Sequence record: NC_042307.1
Source: a phage
Length of the DNA stretch: 64,000 bases
Strand: one strand, 5' to 3'
Of this stretch, positions 2,317 to 41,088 are shown piece after piece (position 1 is the first letter of the stretch; every line of letters starts with the position of its first letter). The notes beneath the pieces were generated by a model, which saw nothing but the letters and a program-made list of their open reading frames with translations, did no database searches and was not told where the DNA came from. Both the position numbers and the translations under genes were made by a program.

Positions 2317-3459
2317 AGGAAGTCTCCAAATTCATTACCCAAATCTTTCAAGGTATCAGTAGAGGTCTCAGTTACCTGACCTACACGGTAGGCTGCACCA
2401 ATCTGGATTTCTTGTGGGGCAGGCTGTAGAGAAGTAGTATCCAACCAGTTCATGATCCACGGAATAGGGTTTTTAGTGATTACTGGTAAGTGACTAGGCC
2501 ATTCTACACCAATGTGCATAAATGCGTTACGCCCCACAAAGTACAAGTATTCTTCTAGAAGTTCTGCATTCAAACCAATCAGACTACGACCTTTGAAGAT
2601 GAAATGACCCCATTCAATTTCAGTTTTAAGAGTTTTCAGGAGTTGTGCTGGTGCTTTAGCCACTGCTTCATCTACCAGATCTTTGTCAAACTGCTGGAAC
2701 ATAATCTGGATGATTGTTTTAGACATCTGAGTATGTAGGGCTTCATCTTTAGCAATCAATTGCAGATTTTTAGCAATACCTTGCAGAATATCGTTCTCTG
2801 CTAACGCAAAGGTACATGCAAAGGATGCGTAGAACTGCATTGCTTCCAGACCGTAGATTGCAAAATAAGCATCTAACAGTTTAGCCTGAGTTTCACGCTT
2901 AACCTCAGGGAACTCAGTTTCTGGATATGTATTGTCACCACGATGATCACGTACTGCGATGAAATACTGACCTAACTGGTACAGTTCATCGAACAGCTCA
3001 ACAGAATCAGCGATACGTGCGAATGCTTCTTGGTTTTTGGTTACAGAATCAATAAATTCTGCCGGATCAGTCAGCACATTACGAATAATATTACTATAAG
3101 CACGACTATGCAGGTCTTCAAAGTAGCTCCACTGCTTGAGCATACCTTCTAGTTCTGGACGACTTACAAGCGGCATAATAGCTGCTTCAGGCGCTCGACT
3201 GATAAAGGAATCAGTTTGGGTCTGCCATGCTAAGTTCAGGAGTGTGATTTCCTGAATTTCACGTGGGAGATTGGGCCATTGTTTCTTATCTGCTTCCAGA
3301 CTGATTTCAGTTTCAGTCCAAAATTGAGAGCGTTGCAGAAGTGCCAGACGTTCTAGTTCTGGATGTGCTACACGTACATAATCTGCGATACCTAGAGAAT
3401 CGCCCCAGGAAAAGATCAGCGTTAGTATGATCCCAATTCAGGTTTAGTAAAGTAGTCAT
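2313..3459 (-). CDS. nrdB: ribonucleotide reductase small subunit NrdB; reading frame interrupted near the 5' end (see findings)
   Basis: frame 0 is open 3437..2313 and aligns with class Ia NrdB (FSWGDSLGIADY.., SQFW.., RAPEAAIMPLVSRPELE.., HSRAYSNIIRN); only plausible ATG (3459..3457) is in another frame. Confidence 0.85.
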
Positions 3460-3594
3460 TGATTTTCCTCTTTCTCACTATTTCAGGAATATTATAGCAA
3501 ATCAGGTAGCGATTAGCAGGTAAAATTATAAACTATCAAGCTCCAATAGTTTCATATCGCGCCACTCTATAGCATCCTCAAGTTCTTGGAATGT

Positions 3595-37707: not shown

Positions 37708-37957
37708 TTTTGTTGATCCTAATCAAATAGAGATTGATGCTAATCAACACCCTAATTTCTATGGTGTGATTGTAGCACCCCCCTACCCTTGATAAGGTAG
37801 TACTAAAAGTGGATATGTTTGGCAATATGGAGCAATGGAAAGAAGAAGGGTTTATTAAACTGTGTTCTTAGTCTCAAGATCCTACCCTTAGGGCTATGCT
37901 TGCCGTGTATAACTTAGGTATTATCGCAGGTAGTAAAGAGTAATAAAACCCCCCCCC

Positions 37958-37993
37958 CTCCAGTGGACAATCCACTGGGGTTTTCTCTTATTT
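37958..37993. terminator. terminator hairpin between the convergent early (plus) and late (minus) regions
   Basis: CCAGTGGA-CAA-TCCACTGG then TTTTCTCTTATTT on plus; preceded by a C10 tract at 37949-37958. Confidence 0.65.
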
Positions 37994-38155
37994 AGTAAGG
38001 AGTTGTTTTACTAATTCCTTTAGTTTAGTAATCTTTTGTACTGAGAGGGTGCAAAACGAACCTCTTGCATTTTGTGTTTTCATATGTACATAAGAACAGC
38101 CTAAGAATCAGCGAACTGTTAATACAGTAGAACATGCATTGCGTTGCTAGGATAA

Positions 38156-38665
38156 TCAAAATTCAGGCTTGTTTCGCAGCAATATTTTTTCAGTGGCAAG
38201 TTGCTCCTGGAATGCTGTACGCTGTTGATCAAACGACTGAGCAGAGATCGCGCCAGCGATGGTACTAGTGCTAGAGGTGATCGCAGTGTTCAGCTCTGCA
38301 AAACCCTGGACAGACGCCAATAGGTTTTGAGTATTCTATTGGGTAATAGCGTTCAGGTTCATTGCGCCTGTGTTAGCGATTGCCAGATTGGTTGCACCCT
38401 GACCCTGTACAACAGTTAGGCCCAGATTGTTCAGTCCGCTCTGAATGGATTCGATATCGCTTACCAGTGAAGTAGTCAGCATGTTTGCAGCAGTACCAGC
38501 AACGGAAACCGCGCCATCCACACCACCAACGCCAACACCACGACCACCCACACCATTACCTAACCAGGAATCAATCAGCGCACCACTAAAAGCAGCGATA
38601 CCAGGCATAGCACCGTCACCACCGAGACCGCCCATGTTGGTCGGTAAAAGAGTCCTGTCAGACAT
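38156..38665 (-). CDS. glycine/alanine-rich small protein; 109-codon ORF ends at in-frame TAG 38336-38338, frame stays open for 59 more codons to TGA 38156-38158
   Basis: ATG 38665 with AGGAG 8 nt upstream; downstream frame verified codon by codon. Confidence 0.5.
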
Positions 38666-38788
38666 AGTAAACACTCCTGAGAGTTGATTGTTAAACACAT
38701 GTAACACGCACATTACGAGTTAAGCATAGTGCATAACAAAAAGTTTACCTGGCATCTGATGTAAAGTTTTGTAAAGTTAAAAGTGATA

Positions 38789-38816
38789 AAAATACGCAGC
38801 CGAAGCCGCGTATTTT
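38789..38816 (-). terminator. hairpin terminator downstream of the tail-fibre gene
   Basis: 9-bp stem AAAATACGC/GCGTATTTT with GC-rich inner stem; U-rich 3' arm on minus strand. Confidence 0.5.
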
Positions 38817-38820
38817 AGGA

Positions 38821-41088
38821 TTAAGGAAGGTCTTGATTTGGAGCGGGGTCTTCAGGTAGAGTGGTTGGTTTATCTTCTAACAAAGACTCTAACTTACTGA
38901 CACGGGCGCTTAGCACCTGGATAGCAGCAAGCGCATCCAGTAACAGCACGTTAGTATCAAGCGAAAGAATTGTATTTCCCTCCTTGTCCTCGCTTGAGTG
39001 TGTGTATTCAGGGTCTATGGTTGCCGCTTGCTGTGCAATGATTCCACGACGTACCCGACGCTTTATATCATCTTTGAAGATAAACGTCACGAGCTCTAAC
39101 TGATTGATGTTGTTTAACGCACTCTTACCGTCCCATGGCTCAACCTGTTCTTTATAATCAATGTCGCTTGTAGGATCCAGCGTTACTCGCCCAATACGAG
39201 TACTATCAATCCATACATCGACTCCCGGATTTTCCCACGAGAAAGAATAGCTATTTGCTTGGAAATTACCACCAATACCTCTACGGCAAATGACACCTGC
39301 CGAGGGTAAGAGAGTTGTTAAGCGAGTAGCATCGTAGGTATCTAAAACAGATCGTGCAGTTCCATCGTAAAAATCTACACGAGCGGCGTACTGTGTCACC
39401 TGCCCCGCCCCATAACTCAACTCCATGTTACCGGACGCCTCTCCTGGCGCACCTGTGTTACGACTAATAATCAGGCTTCTAATATTAGACATTTCGCCAA
39501 AGTCGCTAAAAAGATACTCCCAGCTTTCACCGGACACTCGAGTAGGCTTAATGCAGGCATATGTGACGCTTCCTACTGTGTGGTTTACGTAAAAATCAGC
39601 AGTCGCCGTTCCGATACCATAGCCTTCTACAATTGATCGCCACGACCAACCCAAAATTTGACCTGTTGAGCCAGCAGGATAATAATGTTTAGTAGCAATC
39701 ATGGCGGTCGCAGTGTCACCACCTTTGGACAGCGCCCCGATGTTGTTGCGAGCACCCTCTGCGTCCCAAGCTCCAGTGCCGCCCTGTCCTACTCCTAAAG
39801 GTTTAAATACATTACTAGTATCGTCATAGACACCCCAAGACCCTGTATCCATTACAACTAAGTTGTAGCGGTTTGTCGGGTCATAAATGCGGGAACTATC
39901 AGCGCTCTGTTTAAGACGATCCACACTTAGGTTTATACGAGCCTGTACCTTGTCACTTAAGTCTGCAAGGTTCTGATCCTTTAACAAAGATATGCTCAAA
40001 GTTTGTTCAGCTTTGTTTGCTGCGGTCTCAGCTCGAGTTGCGGAACTGGATGCTGCTACGGCTTGTTCTCCTGCGGTTGTAGCGCTTCCAGCCGCGGCTG
40101 TAGCCTGTTCTGTAGCCGTTACTGCCTTTTGTCCAGCTAAGGTGGCAGCGTCTTCCGCAGCTTGTTTTAACGGGGTGATTTCAGCAATTGCGTTTGCCTT
40201 AGCTGTGTCAATTGCTCCTACTGCGTCCGTCTTAGCTGCTCCAATCTCTGTCGCCGCACCTTCTTTAATGGTCTGAGTGTCCGCTTTAAGCTGTTCAACA
40301 TCGGACTTAAGACCCTGTATTGTGGTCATAGCTTGCGTAGCTATGTTCGCGCTATCTGATGCACCTTGCTGAGCTAGCTTAGCAGCGTCTTCACTAGCTT
40401 TTGAGTTAATTTCGCTAGTCTTTGTATTAGTTTCTGAGTTTTTTGCTGCTAATGCTGATGTGGAGGCTTGTGCAGCGAATGCTTCTGCTTCATCCCTGAA
40501 TCCTTTGGAGTCAGAAGCAGAGGCAGCGGAATCAGCAGCATTAGTCTCGCTAGTTTTTGCTGCTGCTGCATATGCTGCTGCATTAGTCTCGCTAGTTTTT
40601 GCGTTAGTCTCACTAGTTTTTGCATTAGTCTCACTAGTTTTTGCTGCAGCTGATGATTCTAGAGCGTTAGTTTCACTAGTTTTTGCTGCAGCTGATGATT
40701 CTGCAGCTTTAGTAGCGGACGCAGCAGATTGAGAAGCAGAAATAGCAGAGGCATCGGCACTATCTTTAGATAAACCAGCTTGTCTCTCCGCTTCAGTAGC
40801 AGAAGTAGCAGATTGAGTTGCAGAAGCTTCTGAAGAGTTAGCATAATTTGCAGATAGGTTCTCAGAGTCCTTAGCATTTATTTCAGATTCTTTTGCTGCA
40901 ATTTCAGAATCTTTTGCAGCCGCAGCAGACTTAGCTGCTGCCTCAATAGAAGATACTAACTCACTTGCAGTAATAGAGCTAATAGAATTACCTAGAGTTA
41001 CTGTATATCTAGGAAACTTACTAGCAGTAGCTTTAGTATCGTCAATATTTAATATCTGTTGTACAATAATTTTAGTAGTTACTGACAT
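38821..41088 (-). CDS. ltf: L-shaped/side tail fibre protein with C-terminal intramolecular chaperone (S74-like) domain
   Basis: 755 aa; AKTSETN heptad repeats; C-terminal ..SDIDYKEQVEPWDGKSALNNINQLELV.. resembles autoproteolytic chaperone domains. Confidence 0.65.
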   Translation of the reverse strand: MSVTTKIIVQQILNIDDTKATASKFPRYTVTLGNSISSITASELVSSIEAAAKSAAAAKDSEIAAKESEINAKDSENLSANYANSSEASATQSATSATEAERQAGLSKDSADASAISASQSAASATKAAESSAAAKTSETNALESSAAAKTSETNAKTSETNAKTSETNAAAYAAAAKTSETNAADSAASASDSKGFRDEAEAFAAQASTSALAAKNSETNTKTSEINSKASEDAAKLAQQGASDSANIATQAMTTIQGLKSDVEQLKADTQTIKEGAATEIGAAKTDAVGAIDTAKANAIAEITPLKQAAEDAATLAGQKAVTATEQATAAAGSATTAGEQAVAASSSATRAETAANKAEQTLSISLLKDQNLADLSDKVQARINLSVDRLKQSADSSRIYDPTNRYNLVVMDTGSWGVYDDTSNVFKPLGVGQGGTGAWDAEGARNNIGALSKGGDTATAMIATKHYYPAGSTGQILGWSWRSIVEGYGIGTATADFYVNHTVGSVTYACIKPTRVSGESWEYLFSDFGEMSNIRSLIISRNTGAPGEASGNMELSYGAGQVTQYAARVDFYDGTARSVLDTYDATRLTTLLPSAGVICRRGIGGNFQANSYSFSWENPGVDVWIDSTRIGRVTLDPTSDIDYKEQVEPWDGKSALNNINQLELVTFIFKDDIKRRVRRGIIAQQAATIDPEYTHSSEDKEGNTILSLDTNVLLLDALAAIQVLSARVSKLESLLEDKPTTLPEDPAPNQDLP
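40538..40702. repeat. tandem 21-bp repeats (~5 copies, unit TTAGTCTC[G/A]CTAGTTTTTGC) plus a duplicated 40-bp unit inside the tail-fibre gene
   Basis: repeats read directly; encode AKTSETN repeats. Confidence 0.8.

What the first reader, a model, noticed from the sequence alone, without database searches (positions are those of the whole stretch)
38156..38665. In-frame amber codon inside a glycine-rich small late gene
The ORF starting at ATG 38665 (AGGAG 8 nt upstream) encodes a Gly/Ala/Ser/Asn-rich product (MSDRTLLPTNMGGLGGDGAMPGIAAFSGALIDSWLGNGVGGRGVGVGG...AITQ) and stops at TAG 38336-38338. The same frame then continues for 59 sense codons (NTQNLLASVQGFAELNTAITSSTSTIAGAISAQSFDQQRTAFQEQLATEKILLRNKPEF) to TGA 38156-38158, with the same amino-acid style as the upstream part. 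Fifty-nine stop-free codons arise by chance only about 5 percent of the time. Possible explanations are an amber mutation in a stock grown on a suppressor host, programmed readthrough giving a short and a long isoform, or a base-call error. I do not recognise the protein. Its N-terminus ends in GG like a double-glycine leader, but the rest of the leader consensus is not met, so I do not assert a microcin-like identity.
Basis: seen in the sequence. Interest (0 to 1): 0.7.

Follow-up and report, generated by a model that had tools for sequence, protein, structure and literature searches.

The report
Fossil gene with fixed amber stop
The in-frame TAG is real, but it is one of several disabling lesions in a decaying remnant of a ~235-aa gene that is intact in other phages, so it is an ordinary pseudogene and not a lab amber mutant, a sequencing error or programmed readthrough.

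Summary
On the minus strand, ATG 38665 opens a 109-codon ORF that ends at TAG 38336-38338, and the same frame runs 59 more codons to TGA 38156-38158.

The two parts were once one gene. Intact ~235-aa homologues (PHROG 9288; 185 clusters, 225-265 aa) align straight across the TAG. The TAG sits on a Gln that is invariant in 60 diverse members (CAG/CAA in four intact loci), so it is a single C-to-T change.

The TAG is not the only lesion:
- After "...QLATEK", homology continues in the +1 frame, because of an A6 run whose length is 6, 7, 8, 14 or 15 in different isolates.
- That frame holds further stops. A TAA and a TAG are shared by all 15 aligned T5-like copies, and the window adds a TGA.
- The last ~32 ancestral residues are gone.
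- 42 of 91 near-invariant family residues are lost.

All 43 GenBank Epseptimavirus records with this locus carry the T of TAG. Some add their own frameshifts, and SE19 has one inside the first ORF. The closest relative's genome has 28 tRNAs and none reads UAG. pN/pS does not differ from neutrality on either side of the TAG.

Verdict: a fixed, decaying pseudogene. Interest is low.

The parts
38339..38665 (-). Residual 5' ORF (109 codons), corresponding to ancestral residues 1-~103 of the PHROG 9288 family. The start codon and AGGAG (38674-38678) are retained.
   Evidence: Searches give the sequence and translation. One search aligns it to PHB07 gp23. In one search it keeps only 19 of 34 near-invariant family positions (intact members: minimum 20, median 33). 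The ORF is intact in 14 of 15 T5-like copies and frameshifted in SE19.
38336..38338 (-). TAG nonsense codon that replaces an invariant family Gln (CAG to TAG, a C-to-T transition). It is fixed in the clade.
   Evidence: One search aligns the stop to Q104 of PHB07. One search shows Q103 invariant in 60 members. One search gives the codons in intact loci (CAG three times, CAA once). One search shows TAG in 15 of 15 aligned copies. Searches show T in 43 of 43 records.
38156..38335 (-). In-frame continuation: 59 codons plus TGA. Codons 111-158 are the fossil of ancestral residues ~105-154. The last ~10 codons (ILLRNKPEF) are out-of-frame junk after the A-run frameshift.
   Evidence: The region after the TAG is 65% identical to Tlsvirus homologues.
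38185..38190 (-). A6 homopolymer. It puts the window copy 2 nt short of the ancestral frame (A8). Its length is polymorphic among isolates: 6, 7, 8, 14 or 15.
   Evidence: With A8 or A14 (vaffelhjerte, gmork, SE24) the frame reads ...EKKYCCETSLNLDYPSNAMHVLLY*, which is the family motif CCCETNLNIE.
38032..38199 (-). Remnant of ancestral residues ~148-205, readable only in the +1 frame. It holds three more stops: TAA 38119-38121, TAG 38101-38103 and TGA 38080-38082. The conserved LICD cysteine motif is lost (LMYI).
   Evidence: tblastn frame +1: KKYCCETSLNFDYPSNAMHVLLY*QFADS*AVLMYI*KHKMQEVRFAPSQ; 38199-38032. The TAA and TAG are shared by 15 of 15 copies.
38789..38816 (-). Intrinsic-terminator-like hairpin (12-bp stem, then a T-run) just after the fibre gene stop and upstream of the remnant.
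   Evidence: The intact PHB07 locus has the same layout, with terminators before and after the 237-aa gene.
38821..41088 (-). Upstream neighbour: 755-aa lateral tail fibre with a C-terminal Peptidase_S74 intramolecular chaperone domain. This is the allele found together with the remnant.
   Evidence: ORF; PF13884, E 6e-10, residues 641-695. In one search the receptor-binding half is at least 95% identical in 43 records, the same number as carry the remnant. In every isolate I aligned the two lie side by side.
37958..37980 (.). Terminator hairpin between the convergent late (minus-strand) and early (dUTPase, plus-strand) units. It marks the 3' limit of the remnant region, and the flanking G-run varies in length between isolates.
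   Evidence: (alignment columns ~720-745).

Best explanation
The region 38665-38032 (minus strand) is a pseudogene. It is the decaying remnant of the first gene of a four-gene cassette (PHROGs 9288, 9157, 8329, 7239) that is intact in many small siphophages.

An ancestor of this group of Salmonella T5-like phages (Epseptimavirus) carried the gene next to its 755-aa lateral tail fibre allele. A CAG-to-TAG transition at an invariant Gln truncated the protein at residue 109. With selection gone, the rest accumulated two further shared stop codons plus a TGA in the window lineage, slippage-prone homopolymer runs whose length now differs between isolates, and loss of conserved residues. The 3' end of the gene and the other three cassette genes were deleted.

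The 59 stop-free codons after the TAG, and their 'same amino-acid style', are simply what is left of the old reading frame. Today the TAG acts as an ordinary terminator. At most a 109-aa N-terminal fragment is made, and nothing indicates that it is needed.

Shown directly: the homology across the TAG, the extra lesions, fixation of the TAG in the clade, the frame polymorphisms and the absence of an amber-suppressor tRNA. Inferred: the order of events, and the non-function of the 109-aa fragment.
For: 1. Intact homologues exist and are the norm: 185 protein clusters, 225-265 aa long. Uninterrupted genes are seen in PHB07, PJ16, BHUENT2, Yersinia P400 and Aeromonas SD04.
2. The window aligns to the PHB07 protein at residues 1-154 in the ORF's frame, with the TAG opposite Gln. 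Residues 148-202 align in the +1 frame with three more stops. Nothing aligns to residues 206-237.
3. The TAG column is an invariant Gln in 60 diverse members, encoded by CAG or CAA in intact loci.
4. All 15 aligned T5-like copies share TAG110 plus a TAA and a TAG in the ancestral frame. The A-run is 6, 7, 8, 14 or 15 long. SE19 has +1 G inside the first ORF, KKP_3831 has +1 A three codons after the TAG, and bux has a new TAA.
5. 43 of 43 GenBank records carry the T of TAG.
6. The copy has lost 42 of 91 near-invariant family positions, 15 of 34 of them upstream of the TAG.
7. Within-clade pN/pS is 0.57 upstream of the TAG and 0.40 downstream. Neither differs significantly from neutrality, and the two do not differ from each other (Fisher p = 1.0).
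8. The window has no trace of the other three cassette genes.
9. The S126 genome has 28 tRNAs and none with a CUA anticodon.
10. No Rfam family matches the region.
Against: The first 109 codons keep their start codon and Shine-Dalgarno sequence in 15 of 15 copies, and the ORF is open in 14 of 15. Two of the three indels inside it are in-frame (SP_Thor -6 nt, rokbiter +3 nt), although they lie in a Gly-codon repeat where in-frame slippage is expected anyway. pN/pS values of 0.4-0.6 are below 1, and the counts (23 and 16 substitutions) are too small to exclude weak constraint. No expression data were available. Some homopolymer length differences between records could be sequencing errors, but the shared stops cannot be.
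Confidence: 0.88

Rival explanations
1. Truncated but functional gene. The 109-aa N-terminal fragment (Gly-rich segment plus the start of the helix) has been kept as a working small protein, and only the part after the TAG is dead.
For: The start codon and AGGAG are conserved in 15 of 15 copies, and the ORF is open in 14 of 15. Two of the three indels in it are in-frame. pN/pS is 0.57.
Against: It has lost 15 of 34 near-invariant family positions, fewer retained than in any of the 60 intact members. pN/pS does not differ from neutrality (p = 0.13) or from the certainly dead downstream part (Fisher p = 1.0). SE19 carries a frameshift within it. A strong terminator hairpin lies directly upstream, and no sigma-70-like promoter was detected between it and the ORF.
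Confidence: 0.08
2. Programmed or leaky UAG readthrough that yields a short (109 aa) and a long (168 aa) isoform.
For: The post-TAG frame is open for 59 codons in 9 of 15 copies. The relative's genome encodes a tRNA-Gln(CUG). From general knowledge, not tested here, such a tRNA can misread UAG at a low level.
Against: The extension is not conserved as a coding unit: KKP_3831 frameshifts 3 codons after the TAG, SE19 is already out of frame, bux stops early, and three different C-terminal ends arise from A-run lengths 6, 7 and 8. The extension ends in frameshifted junk, and the true ancestral frame has further stops. No CUA tRNA is present. No Rfam element or recognised readthrough signal was found.
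Confidence: 0.02
3. An amber mutation picked up in a laboratory stock grown on a suppressor host, or a base-call error in this assembly.
For: None beyond the bare presence of a TAG.
Against: The same T is present in 43 of 43 independent GenBank records from many laboratories and countries. It is also annotated as a split gene (orf22a/orf22b) in S113.
Confidence: 0.01
4. Genome-wide stop-codon reassignment (TAG read as Gln), as in some crAss-like and Lak phages.
For: The TAG replaces a Gln codon.
Against: No suppressor tRNA(CUA) in the S126 genome. The flanking long genes (755-aa fibre, flap endonuclease, dUTPase) are intact under the standard code. The same remnant also holds TAA and TGA stops and frameshifts.
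Confidence: 0.01

Closest known systems
PHROG 9288 (unnamed family, function unknown), e.g. Salmonella phage vB_SenS_PHB07 gp23 (YP_009799777.1, 237 aa), Escherichia phage aaroes gp76 and Salmonella phage Sasha CPTSasha_07
   Same: Clear homology: E 1e-39 to the profile and 57% identity to PHB07 over residues 1-154. It shares the conserved N-terminus MSDxTLLPT, the Gly-rich segment, and the NTQNLLASVQGFAxLNTAI and CCETxLN motifs. Like the Drexlerviridae and SD04 copies, it lies just 3' of a lateral tail fibre gene, after a terminator.
   Different: The window copy is not an open gene. It has TAG at an invariant Gln, a frameshift, three further stops and a missing C-terminus (LPTPPTPPTGCC), with 42 of 91 near-invariant residues changed. 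The three downstream cassette partners are absent.
Escherichia phage JakobBernoulli (Bas07) bas07_0035 / bas07_0034
   Same: The same family gene is also broken by a single C-to-T nonsense change at a Gln codon and is annotated as two ORFs.
   Different: It is an independent event: TAA at codon 78 rather than TAG at 110. The rest of that gene is full-length and in frame, with the Cys motifs and cassette partners intact, so it is a recent single lesion rather than an old, multiply decayed remnant.
Programmed stop-codon readthrough genes (e.g. the Q-beta coat/A1 protein, from general knowledge)
   Same: A sense-like reading frame continues beyond an in-frame stop codon.
   Different: Here the extension is not conserved in frame among close relatives, shows no detectable purifying selection, and ends in frameshifted sequence.

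Membership tests
PHROG 9288 family (functional member) | Significant sequence match to the family profile | tested here: met
   E 1e-39, residues 1-160 against profile positions 1-152 of 234; tblastn E 2e-58 to PHB07 gp23.
PHROG 9288 family (functional member) | Uninterrupted ORF of about 225-265 aa | tested here: not met
   One search shows member lengths of 223-265 aa. The window has TAG at codon 110, a frameshift at the A6 run, three more stops, and no counterpart of residues 206-237.
PHROG 9288 family (functional member) | Retention of invariant or near-invariant residues (Q103, CCC154-156, LICD184-187, C-terminal PTPPTGCC) | tested here: not met
   49 of 91 near-invariant positions kept, against at least 70 of 91 in any intact member (summing per-segment minima of 20, 43 and 7). 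Q103 is a stop, the first Cys of CCC is Tyr, LICD is LMYI, and the C-terminus is absent.
PHROG 9288 family (functional member) | Followed by cassette partners PHROG 9157, 8329 and 7239 | tested here: not met
   the partners are present in L006-L009 (and by gene sizes in L022 and L023). tblastn finds none in the whole window.
Programmed stop-codon readthrough | The extension's reading frame is conserved among relatives | tested here: not met
   frameshifts and new stops in KKP_3831, SE19, bux and rokbiter, and three alternative C-terminal ends.
Programmed stop-codon readthrough | Purifying selection on the extension | tested here: inconclusive
   pN/pS 0.40, from 16 substitutions, p = 0.06 against neutrality, and no different from the upstream part. 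The counts are too small to decide.
Programmed stop-codon readthrough | Product that spans the stop codon | not testable with these tools
   This needs mass spectrometry or ribosome profiling.
Suppressor-dependent amber mutant / TAG-recoded phage | A UAG-decoding tRNA (anticodon CUA) available from the phage | tested here: not met
   no tRNAs in the window; 28 tRNAs in the rest of the closest relative's genome (S126) and none with CUA. The query phage's own tRNA region lies outside the window.
Suppressor-dependent amber mutant / TAG-recoded phage | Wild relatives carry a sense codon at the site | tested here: not met
   43 of 43 records of the clade carry T (TAG). Only distant, non-T5 homologues have CAG or CAA.
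Double-glycine-leader bacteriocin / microcin | Match to a bacteriocin family or leader, and a nearby C39-peptidase ABC exporter | tested here: not met
   no Pfam or NCBIfam match. The neighbours are a tail fibre gene and dUTPase. The N-terminal ...GG is the family-wide conserved start of a ~235-aa protein.

The most novel reading that the evidence does not exclude
The 109-aa N-terminal fragment (a Gly-rich, glycine-zipper-like segment plus a short helix) has been co-opted as a small functional protein in Salmonella T5-like phages. Low-level natural misreading of UAG by the phage's own tRNA-Gln(CUG) might add a minor extended form. That would explain why the start, the RBS and the first ORF stay open in 14 of 15 isolates while everything downstream falls apart.
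Probability: 0.07. Interest if true: 0.4.

Novelty: new member of a known kind. Interest (0 to 1): 0.12.

Why it matters
The main value is for annotation. The two 'hypothetical proteins' called here in dozens of Epseptimavirus records (e.g. orf22a/orf22b in S113) are better described as one pseudogene. The TAG should not be taken as evidence of recoding, suppression or a sequencing problem.

There are two minor points of wider interest:
- It shows that a compact lytic phage genome can carry a recognisable dead gene through at least 43 sampled isolates. The remnant occurs with one lateral tail fibre allele, which is consistent with, but does not prove, arrival by module exchange.
- It draws attention to an uncharacterised four-gene cassette that is widespread in enterobacterial siphophages. 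Its first gene has been knocked out independently at least twice.

Tried and rejected
- IMG/VR scan for close relatives. It found only one locus, a copy of Salmonella phage 36, so it did not help with the T5-like clade.
- Pfam, NCBIfam and PDB sequence searches of the intact family. Only sub-threshold noise came back (DUF4985, Psb31, ThrH, Psy3), which I rejected.
- AlphaFold2 of intact member P0001 with a 60-sequence alignment. Confidence was low (pLDDT 55, pTM 0.21): a disordered Gly-rich N-terminus plus one 160-residue helix. I did not run fold searches, because a single low-confidence helix gives meaningless matches. The 'coiled-coil rod' reading is only a guess.
- My idea that the family is a fibre-linked chaperone, as annotated in PJ16. 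I rejected it as unsupported. In PJ16 the upstream gene matches terminase, and in Yersinia P400 the cassette sits beside head genes.
- Search for a donor of the fibre-plus-remnant module. No non-T5 phage shares the fibre's receptor-binding part or the spacer, so no donor was identified.
- Literature. Nothing was found on this ORF or its family.
- Rfam. No RNA family matches.
- Promoter scan. No sigma-70-like site upstream of the ORF. This is weak negative evidence, because T5 late promoters may not fit the consensus.

Full report
**1. Observation.**
On the minus strand an ORF starts at ATG 38665, with AGGAG 8 nt upstream. It encodes 109 residues and stops at TAG 38336-38338. The same frame then continues for 59 sense codons to TGA 38156-38158. 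Base composition gives 2-4%, and empirically 6.6% of the long ORF segments in this window are followed by an equally long stop-free run. Chance alone would therefore not be excluded. Homology is what settles the matter.

**2. Setting.**
The window comes from a T5-like Salmonella phage (Demerecviridae, Epseptimavirus). The locus is 95-99% identical to 43 GenBank records, with S126 the best at 98.9%. Upstream on the same strand lies a 755-aa lateral tail fibre gene (38821-41088) with a C-terminal Peptidase_S74 intramolecular chaperone domain. A strong terminator hairpin follows it at 38816-38789. Downstream, a hairpin at 37958-37980 separates the locus from the convergent dUTPase and flap endonuclease genes.

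**3. The two halves were once one gene.**
- The conceptual read-through product matches PHROG 9288 (function unknown, profile length 234) over residues 1-160, E 1e-39.
- tblastn against phage genomes finds homologues in Drexlerviridae (Tlsvirus, Hanrivervirus), Nonagvirus, Seuratvirus, Sashavirus/Nonanavirus and others. They align without interruption across query residues 70-163, which spans the TAG at residue 110.
- The homologues are single genes of about 235 aa: PHB07 gp23 is 237 aa, PJ16_015 is 232 aa, and BHUENT2 has one of about 232 aa.
- A search of the 5.8-billion-protein collection finds 185 clusters, and the 120 listed are 223-265 aa long, none with a Pfam domain or an informative name.
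- In an alignment of 60 diverse members, the residue opposite the TAG (Q103 of P0001) is invariant.
- Its codon is CAG in PHB07, JakobBernoulli and BHUENT2, and CAA in PJ16. The TAG is therefore a single C-to-T transition at an invariant Gln.

**4. The TAG is only one of several lesions.**
tblastn of the intact PHB07 protein against the window gives two segments.
- Residues 1-154 align in the ORF's frame (57% identity).
- Residues 148-205 align in the +1 frame, from 38199 to 38032. The window reads KKYCCETSLNFDYPSNAMHVLLY*QFADS*AVLMYI*KHKMQEVRFAPSQ where PHB07 reads ERCCCETNLNIERQGNATRDLLRQQFADSQAVLICDMKAQLQEARFALSQ.

So there is a frameshift at the A6 run (38185-38190) and three more stops (TAA 38119-38121, TAG 38101-38103, TGA 38080-38082). 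The conserved LICD motif is lost, and nothing corresponds to the last ~32 residues, including the conserved LPTPPTPPTGCC end.

Threading the conceptually repaired translation onto the family alignment shows further decay:

| Segment | Near-invariant positions kept by the window | Intact members |
|---|---|---|
| Before the TAG | 19 of 34 | minimum 20, median 33 |
| TAG to end of remnant | 30 of 49 | minimum 43 |
| Beyond the remnant | 0 of 8 | minimum 7 |

The part upstream of the TAG is degenerate too.

**5. State across the clade.**
I aligned the window with 14 other T5-like copies.
- All 15 share TAG110 and, in the ancestral frame, the TAA and the TAG.
- SE19 has +1 G inside the first ORF, leaving 97 aa.
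- KKP_3831 has +1 A three codons after the TAG.
- bux has a T plus an expanded A-run that creates a TAA.
- The A-run is 6, 7, 8, 14 or 15 long. Only A8 and A14 restore the ancestral frame (vaffelhjerte, gmork, SE24: ...EKKYCCETSLNLDYPSNAMHVLLY*).
- Two further homopolymer sites also vary in length.
- SP_Thor (-6 nt) and rokbiter (+3 nt) have in-frame indels in the Gly-codon repeat.

To extend the TAG count to every record, I searched a 101-nt query centred on the TAG and then the same query with CAG. All 43 records matched at 97-99% with TAG, and each lost exactly one further match with CAG. So T is fixed in 43 of 43 records.

Within-clade substitutions are 14 non-synonymous to 9 synonymous upstream of the TAG (pN/pS 0.57, p = 0.13 against neutrality). 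Downstream they are 9 to 7 (pN/pS 0.40, p = 0.06). The two parts do not differ (Fisher p = 1.0).

**6. Rivals.**
- Lab amber mutant or base-call error. This is excluded by fixation of the TAG in 43 independently isolated and sequenced phages.
- Phage-encoded suppression or TAG recoding. The window has no tRNA genes. The rest of the genome of the closest relative, S126, has 28 tRNAs and none with anticodon CUA. The flanking long genes are intact under the standard code.
- Programmed readthrough. The extension is not maintained in frame among isolates, ends in frameshifted sequence, and shows no selection signal distinct from the rest. No Rfam element is present.
- The only rival with some life is that the 109-aa N-terminal fragment is still used. 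Its start and RBS are kept, and it is open in 14 of 15 copies. Against this stand its loss of conserved residues, a substitution pattern compatible with neutrality, the SE19 frameshift, and the terminator directly upstream with no recognisable promoter.

**7. What the ancestral gene was.**
The family is the first gene of a conserved four-gene cassette of roughly 232, 105, 165 and 85 aa (PHROGs 9288, 9157, 8329, 7239), all of unknown function.
- In Drexlerviridae and Aeromonas phage SD04 the cassette follows the lateral tail fibre gene.
- In PJ16 it follows a terminase-like gene.
- In Yersinia phage P400 it lies beside head genes.

It is therefore a mobile cassette and not an obligatory fibre accessory, and the PJ16 label 'lateral tail fiber chaperone' is unsupported.

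AlphaFold2 of an intact member gives a disordered Gly-rich N-terminus (1-59) and one long helix (60-220) at low confidence (pLDDT 55). My guess is an oligomeric coiled-coil rod with Cys clusters, but this is inference only.

The window keeps only the remnant of gene 1. The fibre allele's receptor-binding half occurs at 95% identity or more in 43 records, the same number as carry the remnant, and the two lie side by side in every isolate I aligned. No donor lineage was found.

JakobBernoulli (Bas07) carries an independent nonsense mutation in the same gene (CAA to TAA at codon 78). The gene therefore appears to be dispensable and has been knocked out independently at least twice.

**8. Verdict.**
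The feature is an ordinary, clade-fixed pseudogene with multiple lesions. It is not recoding, suppression or error. Its value is mainly as an annotation correction. Interest is low.

Noticed in passing
L020:40384-40457 (+), i.e. Salmonella phage S126 MH370376.1 65384-65455. Not in the window.: The closest relative carries, as the first gene of its tRNA cluster, a ~73-nt tRNA with anticodon UCA (annotated tRNA-SeC-TCA; ARAGORN also calls it SeC). It would read the UGA stop codon. Whether it acts as an opal suppressor during infection is unknown.
   Followed up: no
L005:2809-4652, L006:2818-4642, L007:2821-4690, L008:3001-4816, L022:6001-7822, L023:6001-8055: A conserved four-gene cassette (~232, ~105, ~165 and ~85 aa; PHROGs 9288, 9157, 8329, 7239; all of unknown function) occurs in different genomic contexts in Drexlerviridae, Nonanavirus, Yersinia phage P400 and Aeromonas phage SD04. 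Gene 1 has a conserved MSDMTLLPT start, a Gly-rich segment, a predicted ~160-residue helix, and CCC, LICD and C-terminal GCC(GC) cysteine motifs.
   Followed up: partly
L006:2818-3522 (Escherichia phage JakobBernoulli, Bas07, MZ501079.1): The same family gene has an independent in-frame TAA at codon 78 (CAA in PHB07). It is annotated as two ORFs, one of them labelled 'putative sugar-binding protein'. The rest of the gene is intact and in frame.
   Followed up: partly
window 38185-38190, ~38040-38050 and the G-run at ~37945-37957; alignment columns 480-495, 641-650 and 728-740: Homopolymer runs in and just beyond the remnant (two A-runs, and a G-run next to the terminator hairpin) differ in length by up to 9 nt between otherwise 95-99% identical isolates. 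This is either real slippage in unconstrained DNA or, in part, homopolymer sequencing error in some records.
   Followed up: partly
window 38789-38816 (-) and L005:2663-2683, 3528-3547: A strong intrinsic-terminator-like hairpin lies between the fibre gene and the remnant. In the intact PHB07 locus the family gene is likewise bracketed by two terminators, so it is probably a separate transcription unit with an unrecognised promoter in the ~125-155-nt spacer.
   Followed up: no
L007:896-2659 and 2821-3519 (Escherichia phage vB_EcoS_PJ16): PJ16_015 is annotated 'lateral tail fiber chaperone', but the gene just upstream matches terminase large subunit profiles (PHROG 2, E 4e-17), not a fibre. The chaperone label looks like an unsupported transfer.
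   Followed up: partly
L009:3915-4404 (IMG/VR copy of Salmonella phage 36): The homologue of cassette gene 3 (164 aa) aligns in three pieces in different frames, at 96-100% identity to PHB07. That suggests two frameshifts, either sequencing errors or another broken cassette gene.
   Followed up: no
window ~40400-40750 (-), within the 755-aa fibre gene: The N-terminal third of the fibre protein contains tandem peptide repeats (AAKTSETNA / KTSETNA several times, within an Ala/Ser/Glu-rich stretch). These may form a length-variable shaft segment.
   Followed up: no
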